This document shows, one piece after another, positions 6,766 through 8,433 of a DNA stretch of 64,000 nucleotides; positions within the stretch are counted from its first letter, which is position 1; every line of letters begins with the position of its first letter. The stretch lies in NCBI GenBank assembly GCA_951406725.2, contig OX597824.1:25420001-25484000 (forward strand), written 5' to 3'. The stretch comes from Octopus vulgaris. Taxonomy: Eukaryota. The notes beneath the pieces are model-generated. The model did not search any database. It saw only the letters and a program-made list of their open reading frames with translations, and was not told the origin of the DNA. A program made the translations under genes and the position numbers.

Positions 6766-8433
6766 TTATTTTGTTATTTCAAAACAATGACTGGTTTTCA
6801 TTTCAAATTTCTCTGGCAGAAAAAGCATATTTTCCAGTTCTTCATGGTTATCGTACGTATATTTCCTTTCATTTCTTGTATAGAATGGTATTTTCAATAG
6901 TGGGTTATTTTCTTTAGCTCCATAGTCAAAATGGGCTGTGCAGATCACGTCTGTCGTCTTGACTATATCCGGGTCTGATCCTTGGTCTCTGCTGTTTATT
7001 ATTGTTTGGATGGTACCCTTGATTGTGCCCTCGATATTGCTCTGCATTTTGCTCTCCGGTGTGCCCAATATTTTACCCTTGATTGTGCCCTCGATATTGC
7101 TCTGCATTTTGCTCTCCGATGTGCTCAATATTTTAACATTGATTTTGCCCTCGATCTTTTTTTTTATTCCCGATGTCTCCGAGATTGTACCATTGATTCT
7201 GCCCTGGATATTGCCCTGCATTTCGCTCTCCGAGGTGTACAAGATTTTAGCATATATCTCTGCATTTTGCTCTTCGGTGATATCTCTCTGCATTTTGCTC
7301 TCCGGTGTGTCCAAGGTTTTATCATTGATAGTGACCTTCATCTTTTTCAGGACTGCAACGTCATCTCCTGTACCCTCAATTGGGTACAAGATATTTCCCT
7401 CCGTATCTCCGAGTTCGAATATGCCCGTTACTGTGCCCGTGAATGTGCCCTTGATTTTGTCTGTGACGGTCCCTTTGTATTTAAAAGACCGGTTGATTAT
7501 ATCCTTCAGGGCGTCTTTGAGATCTTGATTGCCCTCACTATTTAATATCTCCTCCAAAATACTATCTGTAAAATAAGTAAATTCCTCCATATCTTTGACC
7601 CTATCGAAAATTTTCAGTTTTTTATGTGCGGATTTCAAAACATCGCCAAGTAGTTTATTAAGCAGGAGAACAGTTTTGTGTTGGTAAGCCGTGTTATGTA
7701 GTCGATATCGTGAATAAAACATATCATAGAAATTTTTAAGCGTTTTGTCTCTGTAGCATATTTCACCACCTATTACTTTGGACATTTTCATCATTCTTTC
7801 GTGATCAAAGGATGTTCCAATGCCAAGAAAATGGGAATCTCTGGCCAGGTAATCCCATTTATCAACGTCGATGTTATAGTCTGCATTGTTGACGATTTGG
7901 TAAAAAAATTTTTTTCTGTCAGGTTTTTCTGGTTTACCAGTAATGAGATCTTTTATGAAACCAATTTCACCAGACTTAAGTTCTCCTTCAAAATGTTGGT
8001 TCATTTCAAAAAGATGCTCTAACATTTCACATGATACATCTTCATGTTCCCACTTTTTACCTCCATTTTCCTTGCGATACTCGTTGATAATTTCTTGAAA
8101 GGCATGAGAAAAAGGCGCATGTCCTAAATCATGACACAAACCAGCGATTTCAACACACAGTATATCTCGATCAGATATTTCCAGACCGGAATCTTGCTGC
8201 TTAAGATGGCGAATCATTTTCCCAGCTAGATGACATGTTCCCAGACAATGCTCAAATCTATTATGTGAAGCTGATGGATAAACGTAATAACACAAACCTA
8301 GTTGTTTGATATTACGTAATCTCTGAAATTGTACTGTATTAATAATTTTAACACAGAGTGGTGAAAATTGCATGGATCCATGAATAGCGTCCTGAAAAAC
8401 CTGATCCGGACGTGTATCGTTTCCGTTAGCCAT
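6766..8433 (-). CDS. SAMHD1: SAMHD1-like HD-domain dNTP triphosphohydrolase, copy 1 (intact, 555 aa, intronless, no SAM domain, repetitive insert)
   Basis: Motifs DAIHG, QFQRLRNIKQLG, HNRFEHCLG, LCHDLGH.PFSH, WEHE, IDVDKWDYLARD, AYQHK, FDYG.KENNP and LPEKF are colinear with SAMHD1. An in-frame TAA lies 10 codons upstream of the ATG. The symbol denotes the family, not proven orthology. Confidence 0.95.
   Translation of the reverse strand: MANGNDTRPDQVFQDAIHGSMQFSPLCVKIINTVQFQRLRNIKQLGLCYYVYPSASHNRFEHCLGTCHLAGKMIRHLKQQDSGLEISDRDILCVEIAGLCHDLGHAPFSHAFQEIINEYRKENGGKKWEHEDVSCEMLEHLFEMNQHFEGELKSGEIGFIKDLITGKPEKPDRKKFFYQIVNNADYNIDVDKWDYLARDSHFLGIGTSFDHERMMKMSKVIGGEICYRDKTLKNFYDMFYSRYRLHNTAYQHKTVLLLNKLLGDVLKSAHKKLKIFDRVKDMEEFTYFTDSILEEILNSEGNQDLKDALKDIINRSFKYKGTVTDKIKGTFTGTVTGIFELGDTEGNILYPIEGTGDDVAVLKKMKVTINDKTLDTPESKMQRDITEEQNAEIYAKILYTSESEMQGNIQGRINGTISETSGIKKKIEGKINVKILSTSESKMQSNIEGTIKGKILGTPESKMQSNIEGTIKGTIQTIINSRDQGSDPDIVKTTDVICTAHFDYGAKENNPLLKIPFYTRNERKYTYDNHEELENMLFLPEKFEMKTSHCFEITK
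7010..7470 (-). repeat. Coding repeat insert: 60-bp (20-aa) units ESKMQSNIEG(T/K)I(K/N)GKIL(G/S)T plus degenerate upstream units
   Basis: gattgtgccctcgatattgctctgcattttgctctcc repeats at 7021 and 7081. Related ESKMQ/ESEMQ units lie at ~7220 and ~7295. There are two terminal units in copies 1-4 and three in copy 5. Confidence 0.92.

What the first reader, a model, noticed from the sequence alone, without database searches (positions are those of the whole stretch)
8335..8405. Allosteric site rewired: natural D137N equivalent, plus K116Q, N119Q and H125S
Seen: all copies read QVFQDAIHGSMQFSPLCVKIINTVQFQRLR (N32 = AAT at 8340-8338). This aligns without gaps to human [30 protein letters not shown]. 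Established: D137, Q142 and R145 read the guanine of GTP/dGTP in allosteric site 1. From recall, engineered human D137N has altered GTP activation and has been studied with XTP as activator. Inference: these enzymes may use a different activator, be activator-independent, or have shifted function, while the metal-binding H/HD/D residues stay intact.
Basis: partly seen in the sequence, partly recalled or inferred. Interest (0 to 1): 0.72.

Follow-up and report, generated by a model that had tools for sequence, protein, structure and literature searches.

The report
Octopus SAMHD1 copies with retuned switch
Five fast-diversifying octopus copies of the DNA-building-block-destroying enzyme SAMHD1 carry asparagine where the human enzyme reads its GTP activator, which likely weakens GTP control rather than creating a new activator, since the same change recurs in other animals and in a bacterial relative that dGTP activates.

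Summary
Five tandem, SAM-less SAMHD1-like copies from an octopus carry Asn (AAT) at human D137 and keep Q142, R145 and the metal ligands. Human D137N does switch activation from GTP to XTP, about 50-fold.

The change is uncommon, not unique. It occurs in 16 of 384 non-octopod homologues, with about 13 separate origins. Enterococcus EF1143 has Asn here naturally and is dGTP-activated. H125S is uninformative, N119Q occurs in a GTP-responsive fungal enzyme, and K116 is also lost in the D137-bearing octopus paralogue.

The activator region itself is nearly invariant.

Best reading (0.40): a diversifying, probably defensive dNTPase family that is poorly primed by GTP but still assembled by dGTP/dNTPs. 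A true XTP sensor gets 0.12. This is a new variant of a known kind. No enzyme was assayed.

The parts
6766..8433 (-). Copy 1: SAM-less SAMHD1-like ORF without introns, 555 aa; the only full-length copy in the window
   Evidence: model aligns to human 113-557 at Z 44.5, rmsd 2.6, 397 residues
8338..8340 (-). N32 codon (AAT), equivalent of human D137 and of EF1143 N36
8314..8340 (-). Allosteric site 1 base-reading motif N32-Q37-R40 (human D137-Q142-R145)
8374..8403 (-). Q11 (K116), Q14 (N119), S20 (H125): real substitutions at more variable sites
7861..8250 (-). Catalytic core: H62, H101, D102, H105, H110, H130, D191 intact; Q113 (8097-8095) replaces human D218
7903..8076 (-). Hypervariable stretch, codons 120-177; codons 113-180 hold 34 nonsynonymous and 1 synonymous difference among the five copies
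7675..7797 (-). Allosteric site 2 residues kept: R213, R228, K230, N234, H252, K253 (human R333, R352, K354, N358, H376, K377)
7480..7491 (-). R315 and K318 (human R451, K455) kept; one residue between them, at or next to L453, is deleted
6964..7470 (-). About 170-aa insert in place of C-lobe helices (human about 460-495); includes a 60-bp tandem repeat, 4.1 copies, at 7014-7253; poorly modelled
24640..26371 (-). Copy 2, same Asn codon (26278-26276); frameshifted near codon 174
40309..41829 (-). Copy 3, same Asn codon (41736-41734); departs from copy 1 after about codon 496 and ends early
47847..49199 (-). Copy 4, same Asn codon (49106-49104); frameshifted near codon 450
54737..56463 (-). Copy 5, same Asn codon (56370-56368); frameshifted near codon 424 in a run of A

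Best explanation
These five tandem octopus genes encode SAM-less SAMHD1-type proteins with Asn at the GTP-reading position, which likely makes GTP a poor activator while dGTP and other dNTPs would still drive assembly and dNTP hydrolysis, and their excess of amino-acid changes likely reflects a conflict with viruses or other parasites. Shown: the fold, the metal ligands, the retained Q142/R145/F165/R451/K455 and site-2 basic residues, the Asn, and the 62:2 excess. Inferred from other enzymes: loss of GTP priming (human D137N), retained dGTP response (EF1143 N36; Ri D34A) and lower turnover from D218Q. Inferred only: the defensive role.
For: Human D137N is about 44-fold slower with GTP than wild type. 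EF1143 carries Asn36-Gln41-Arg44, binds dGTP in all four interface sites and needs dGTP with Mg; N36 maps to our N32 through a bridging homologue. Ri SAMHD1 D34A forms tetramers with dGTP but not GTP, Ktet 235 against 21 uM. R333, K354, H376 and K377 equivalents are kept in all 10 rows of the octopod Asn clade that reach them, except K377 read off-register in one row, and a basic residue stands at the K523 position in the 7 clade rows aligned. Codons 1-112 differ at only 3 positions among five copies, while 62 nonsynonymous and 2 synonymous differences lie in codons 1-430 (binomial p 7.7e-5). The varying codons fall in family-variable columns (median conservation 0.39 against 0.80). 36 of the 40 differences printed for four public runs match other window copies, so these are not assembly errors. 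A separate octopus paralogue keeps D137 (P0264-P0266) and could cover housekeeping.
Against: No assay of any of these proteins exists here. EF1143-type proteins are only about 28% identical and EF1143 is a tetramer without activator, so its chemistry may not transfer. In the human background D137N is used as a dNTPase-deficient allele and XTP, not a guanine nucleotide, rescues it. K116 is lost, a residue near L453 is deleted, R372 is Thr and the helices after about human 555 are missing; in human SAMHD1 truncation at 583 abolishes tetramers. Four of five copies are frameshifted or cut short. Sister paralogues have lost D207, H215 and H233, or Q142. The selection test counts columns in five recombining copies, which are not independent.
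Confidence: 0.4

Rival explanations
1. The enzymes are activator-independent dNTPases (active monomers or dimers, or pre-assembled oligomers), and site 1 is decaying.
For: Ri SAMHD1 hydrolyses dNTPs as a monomer and its D34A variant is as active as wild type. K116 is gone in every octopod SAMHD1 seen, the C-lobe is cut to about the length of the Aquifex homologue, and Q142 is Trp or Leu in P0010 and P0016. Outside octopods Q142 departs in 4 of 18 Asn domains against 1 of 321 Asp domains (three of the four are one fish clade).
Against: Site-2 and phosphate-binding basic residues are kept across the clade, and codons 1-112 are nearly invariant among the copies. Ri SAMHD1 is activator-independent with Asp intact, so independence does not need Asn.
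Confidence: 0.22
2. The proteins are weak or dead enzymes that act as nucleic-acid binders or as decoys for an antagonist of the housekeeping SAMHD1.
For: D218Q is rare outside octopods (4 of 389 domains) and human D218A is 40-fold slower. It is combined with a change that removes GTP activation in the human enzyme. P0005, P0007, P0008 and P0015 have lost D207, H215 and H233. Four of five copies are broken, and selection acts away from the active site.
Against: All metal ligands, H215 and the substrate residues Q149, R164, K312, Y315, R366, H370, Y374 and Q375 are intact in copy 1, and none is among the codons that vary between copies.
Confidence: 0.16
3. A natural specificity switch: site 1 reads xanthine (XTP, or xanthine in nucleic acid) or another deaminated purine, so the enzymes sense damaged purine pools.
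For: In the human enzyme this single change gives about 50-fold preference for XTP, with structures, and preference for dX over dG in ssDNA. Q142, R145 and R451, which the xanthine contacts also need (inferred), are kept. The site changes almost only to Asn: 18 N, 1 Q, no other residue in 396 domains.
Against: Natural Asn36 in EF1143 reads dGTP. XTP is a non-canonical nucleotide that ITPases remove (search listing; low cellular level recalled). Asp to Asn is a single transition, and the residue ends a helix, where Asn is structurally favoured (recalled).
Confidence: 0.12
4. The change is nearly neutral: GTP activation is normal, by compensation or because A-to-I editing recodes the codon to Asp.
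For: About 13 separate origins suggest easy tolerance. Cephalopods recode heavily and this codon is one edit from Asp (recalled).
Against: Human D137N loses GTP activation about 44-fold. Contigs of runs X3, X4 and X8 that cover 8340 show the genomic base, though contigs drop rare variants.
Confidence: 0.1

Closest known systems
Human SAMHD1 and its engineered D137N variant (PDB 6TX0; PMC7311409, PMC10711556)
   Same: Same fold (Z 44.5), about 44% identity over the core, metal ligands, Q142/R145/F165/R451/K455, and the same Asn as the engineered variant
   Different: No SAM domain; K116Q, N119Q, D218Q, R372T; one-residue deletion near L453; 170-aa insert; ends near human 555; coding region without introns; tandem multi-copy
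Enterococcus faecalis EF1143 dNTPase (PDB 2O6I, 3IRH; PMC3190883)
   Same: Natural Asn-x4-Gln-x2-Arg motif at the same site; HD dNTPase without a SAM domain
   Different: Bacterial, about 21% identity in the structural alignment, keeps the K116-equivalent Lys14, tetramer without activator, dGTP activation shown by assay
Rhizophagus irregularis SAMHD1 (PDB 9MR6; PMC12042053)
   Same: SAM-less eukaryotic SAMHD1 with Gln at N119
   Different: Keeps Asp34 and Lys13; GTP/dGTP tetramers and monomer activity are shown; no insert
Octopus paralogue P0264-P0266 and Argonauta P0042
   Same: SAM-less octopod SAMHD1-likes that also lack K116
   Different: P0264-P0266 keep D137, D218, L453 and the terminal helix; P0042 has Asn but an otherwise conventional body
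Other natural Asn paralogues (Styela, Stylophora, Armadillidium, Procambarus, Physella, Chanos, Seriola, Trachinotus, Echeneis)
   Same: Asn at D137 with R145 kept in 18 of 18 domains; 0 of 16 proteins carry a SAM domain
   Different: Most keep K116 and N119; separate origins on the tree

Membership tests
SAMHD1-type HD dNTP triphosphohydrolase | HD domain with H...HD...D metal ligands and second-metal His | tested here: met
   H62, H101, D102, D191, H130
SAMHD1-type HD dNTP triphosphohydrolase | SAMHD1 catalytic fold | tested here: met
   pLDDT 93 for residues 1-330; TM 0.87-0.88 to human and fungal SAMHD1
SAMHD1-type HD dNTP triphosphohydrolase | Deoxyribose and substrate residues Q149, R164, H210, K312, Y315, D319, R366, H370, Y374, Q375 | tested here: met
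   all kept in copy 1
SAMHD1-type HD dNTP triphosphohydrolase | H215-D218 proton relay | tested here: not met
   H110 kept, Gln at 218; Asp or Glu in 377 of 389 non-octopod domains. The effect of Gln is untested
SAMHD1-type HD dNTP triphosphohydrolase | dNTP hydrolysis to nucleoside and triphosphate | not testable with these tools
   needs an assay
Canonical GTP-activated metazoan SAMHD1 | Site 1 D137-Q142-R145 with K116 | tested here: not met
   N32 and Q11; Q37 and R40 kept
Canonical GTP-activated metazoan SAMHD1 | Site 2 residues R333, R352, K354, N358, H376, K377, K523 | tested here: met
   all kept, K523 as Arg by alignment
Canonical GTP-activated metazoan SAMHD1 | N-terminal SAM domain | tested here: not met
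   no Pfam SAM hit; own SAM profile hits 72 stored proteins and no octopod one
Canonical GTP-activated metazoan SAMHD1 | Complete C-lobe to about residue 600 | tested here: not met
   protein ends near human 555; helices replaced by an insert
Canonical GTP-activated metazoan SAMHD1 | Nucleotide-dependent tetramer | not tested
   no complex prediction run; needs SEC-MALS or cross-linking
XTP-switched SAMHD1 (engineered D137N) | Asn at 137 with Q142 and R145 kept | tested here: met
XTP-switched SAMHD1 (engineered D137N) | Activation by XTP over GTP | not testable with these tools
   the same motif reads dGTP in EF1143, so the motif does not decide it

The most novel reading that the evidence does not exclude
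Animals have repeatedly evolved natural xanthine-reading SAMHD1 paralogues. In octopods these form an amplified, positively selected family whose dNTPase is switched on by XTP or by deaminated purines in nucleic acids: a damage- or infection-gated dNTP sink.
Probability: 0.12. Interest if true: 0.8.

Novelty: new variant of a known kind. Interest (0 to 1): 0.45.

Why it matters
D137N is a laboratory tool allele of human SAMHD1. Natural versions allow a direct test of whether its XTP switch has any biological use, and of how GTP gating is gained and lost in the family. The amino-acid excess among the tandem copies points to an invertebrate SAMHD1 family in a genetic conflict; such selection is described for mammalian SAMHD1 (PMC6744909, passages). 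Searches for SAMHD1 with octopus (10 papers) and with cephalopod (3 papers) listed no study of these genes; the one on-topic hit is a skin-mucus proteome list. The library lacks most subscription papers. If the enzymes simply respond to dGTP like EF1143, the allosteric change is of specialist interest only.

Tried and rejected
1. A-to-I editing restoring Asp. Contigs of X3, X4 and X8 that cover 8340 show the genomic base. X1 is not resolved, because 42 difference rows were not shown. Contigs drop rare variants. Not supported, not excluded.

2. K116Q as a splice-acceptor artefact. A donor-like site lies at 8464, but contigs in X3 (7095-8751), X4 (8029-8770) and X8 (8329-8737) run through it with no joint. 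Rejected for the forms seen.

3. Expression. No RNA holder is listed on record; the 4 laid runs (of 24 listed) are only guessed to be RNA and no DNA run was laid beside them. Not used as evidence. The proteome paper names a 'SAMHD1-like isoform X2', the name that P0260 bears, but its supplement was too large to read, so the accession is unchecked.

4. No whole genome is held, so total copy number and synteny were not examined. The genome-contig scan confirmed no relative.

5. No squid, cuttlefish or nautilus protein was named among the 120 listed rows of each, so the origin cannot be dated beyond octopods, and a SAM-bearing octopus orthologue is not excluded.

6. The careful tree did not finish. 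The quick tree joins the Asn clade to the P0042/P0264 group (SH-aLRT 94); the FastTree run does not. One or two octopod origins remains open.

7. The insert is modelled at pLDDT 20-65 and was not folded alone; its fold is untested.

8. No complex prediction was run, since a pass would follow from likeness to solved SAMHD1.

9. The earlier-findings look-ups returned nothing. The paralogue literature search listed 25 papers, none with the word SAMHD1.

Full report
Setting. The window holds five near-identical minus-strand copies of an HD-domain gene in a tandem array; the duplicated blocks are 94-99% identical. The closest named proteins are Octopus SAMHD1-likes (98% to P0001). Only copy 1 (8433-6766, 555 aa) is full length; the others are frameshifted or end early.

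Observation. Residues 11-112 align without gaps to human 116-217. N32 (AAT, 8340-8338) is D137, and Q11, Q14 and S20 are K116, N119 and H125. All 5 copies share the Asn codon. The model of residues 1-330 is confident and matches SAMHD1.

Human precedent. PMC7311409 (passages and the source-data supplement) shows that D137N is activated by XTP rather than GTP. Means at 1 mM TTP are wt+GTP 0.39, wt+XTP 0.015, D137N+GTP 0.009 and D137N+XTP 0.46 per second. PMC10711556 (passages) reports at least 7-fold and a dX-over-dG preference in ssDNA. PMC7045340 (passages) assigns guanine reading to D137/Q142/R145, phosphate binding to K116/R451/K455, and N119 to site 2; H125 does not occur in that text.

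How rare is Asn? Of 429 stored proteins I set aside 29 octopod ones and 14 cluster mates. Of the other 386, 384 align across position 137, giving 396 domains: 377 Asp, 18 Asn (16 proteins), 1 Gln. Three of the four search queries' hits were ranked against Asn-bearing queries, as was the fourth, so 4% may be slightly high. Named carriers are Styela, Stylophora, Armadillidium, Procambarus, Physella, Chanos, Seriola, Trachinotus and Echeneis. A FastTree of 333 rows (those aligning over more than 250 residues; column 137 removed) needs 14 changes, 13 to Asn and 1 to Gln if Asp is ancestral; deep support is weak. None of the 16 carries a SAM domain, against 71 of 304 Asp proteins (p 0.027, kin not independent). 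So the change is uncommon, recurrent and typical of spare paralogues.

Octopods. 15 of 20 octopod rows that cover the site have Asn. The expanded clade, with Octopus and two Argonauta proteins, is well supported and long-branched (SH-aLRT 100). A second octopod gene keeps Asp in three Octopus species (P0264-P0266) but has Asn in Argonauta (P0042). K116 is absent in all of them, so its loss is not tied to the Asn.

Natural precedent against a simple XTP reading. PMC3190883 (passages and part 3 of 5) lists Lys14, Asn36, Gln41, Arg44, Phe64, Arg326 and Lys330 as the dGTP contacts of EF1143, calls the site highly specific to dGTP, and notes that Asn36 is the one contact not conserved. A bridging homologue aligns N36 with our N32. 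I saw no test of GTP or XTP in the parts read. PMC12042053 (opening part, passages, section 23) shows that fungal SAMHD1 has Gln at N119, forms tetramers with GTP, is active as a monomer, and with D34A responds to dGTP but not GTP. The same residue therefore gives XTP preference in one background and dGTP activation in another.

What else changed. Kept: Q142, R145, F165, R451, K455, the site-2 residues R333, R352, K354, N358, H376, K377, and Arg at the K523 position. Changed: Gln at D218, seen in 4 of 389 non-octopod domains, where human D218A costs about 40-fold; R372T; a one-residue deletion near L453; no helices after about human 555; and an insert of about 170 aa with a 60-bp repeat. Some sister paralogues have lost D207, H215 and H233, or Q142.

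Selection among the copies. Over codons 1-430 there are 62 nonsynonymous and 2 synonymous segregating changes, against about 1029 and 261 sites (binomial p 7.7e-5, smaller with transition bias; 6e-3 if 5 were synonymous). All 10 pairs have pN above pS. Changes cluster at codons 120-177, 222-224, 264-281 and 298-314. Codons 1-112 have 3 changes and 330 upstream bases have 5. No catalytic or allosteric residue changes. Of 40 differences printed from four public runs, 37 are nonsynonymous and 36 recur in other window copies; 42 further rows were not shown. The copies recombine, so the p-value is indicative. This pattern argues that the genes were recently functional and that the Asn-bearing region is being held, by selection or by gene conversion.

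Mechanism. I favour (0.40) a dNTPase that GTP no longer primes well but that dGTP and dNTPs still assemble, so that it would act when dNTP pools are high, beside a conventional paralogue. Rivals are activator independence (0.22), a weak enzyme or decoy (0.16), a true xanthine sensor (0.12) and neutral or edited normal GTP control (0.10). Editing back to Asp was not seen in the contigs of three runs. PMC9353240 (passages) uses human D137N as a dNTPase-deficient allele, which counts against activity under cellular nucleotides. PMC11431876 (passages) lists SAMHD1 proteins in O. vulgaris skin mucus; its supplement could not be read and may show whether these copies are meant.

Verdict. The feature is real and is a new variant of a known enzyme family. 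The Asn is less singular than first thought and does not by itself show a new activator. Interest 0.45.

Noticed in passing
window 7490-8076 (-) and the same stretches of copies 2-5: 62 nonsynonymous against 2 synonymous differences among five tandem copies, many charge swaps, clustered in four helical stretches: looks like diversifying selection
   Followed up: partly
window 8097-8095 (-): Gln at human D218 in all five copies and most of the octopod clade; catalytic proton relay altered
   Followed up: partly
window 6964-7470 (-): About 170-aa insert with 20-aa repeats (60 bp x 4.1), predicted partly as long beta strands at low confidence; found only in this subclade and P0002
   Followed up: partly
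P0005, P0007, P0008, P0015: Octopus paralogues with D207N, H215Y and H233N: probable pseudo-enzymes kept in three species
   Followed up: no
P0290, P0315, P0346: Seriola, Trachinotus and Echeneis paralogues pair D137N with Q142N, a shared double change in the guanine-reading pocket
   Followed up: no
P0006, P0261, P0263 (window 48983, 56247, 8217): Public gene models of these copies start at Met73 and omit the allosteric site and the first metal His, although the frame is open from 72 codons upstream
   Followed up: partly
window 8796-9137 and repeats before each copy: Trinucleotide and dinucleotide microsatellites lie about 360-700 bases upstream of the start codon; long ORFs there are repeat artefacts
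   Followed up: no
window 1-4690, 16779-21478, 34802-40355: A higher-GC block of about 4.7 kb occurs three times between the genes (97-99% identical); possibly a transposon, not examined
   Followed up: no
P0009, P0125, P0121: Tandem double-HD SAMHD1-like proteins in Styela, Physella and Myxocyprinus; both domains carry Asn in the first two
   Followed up: no
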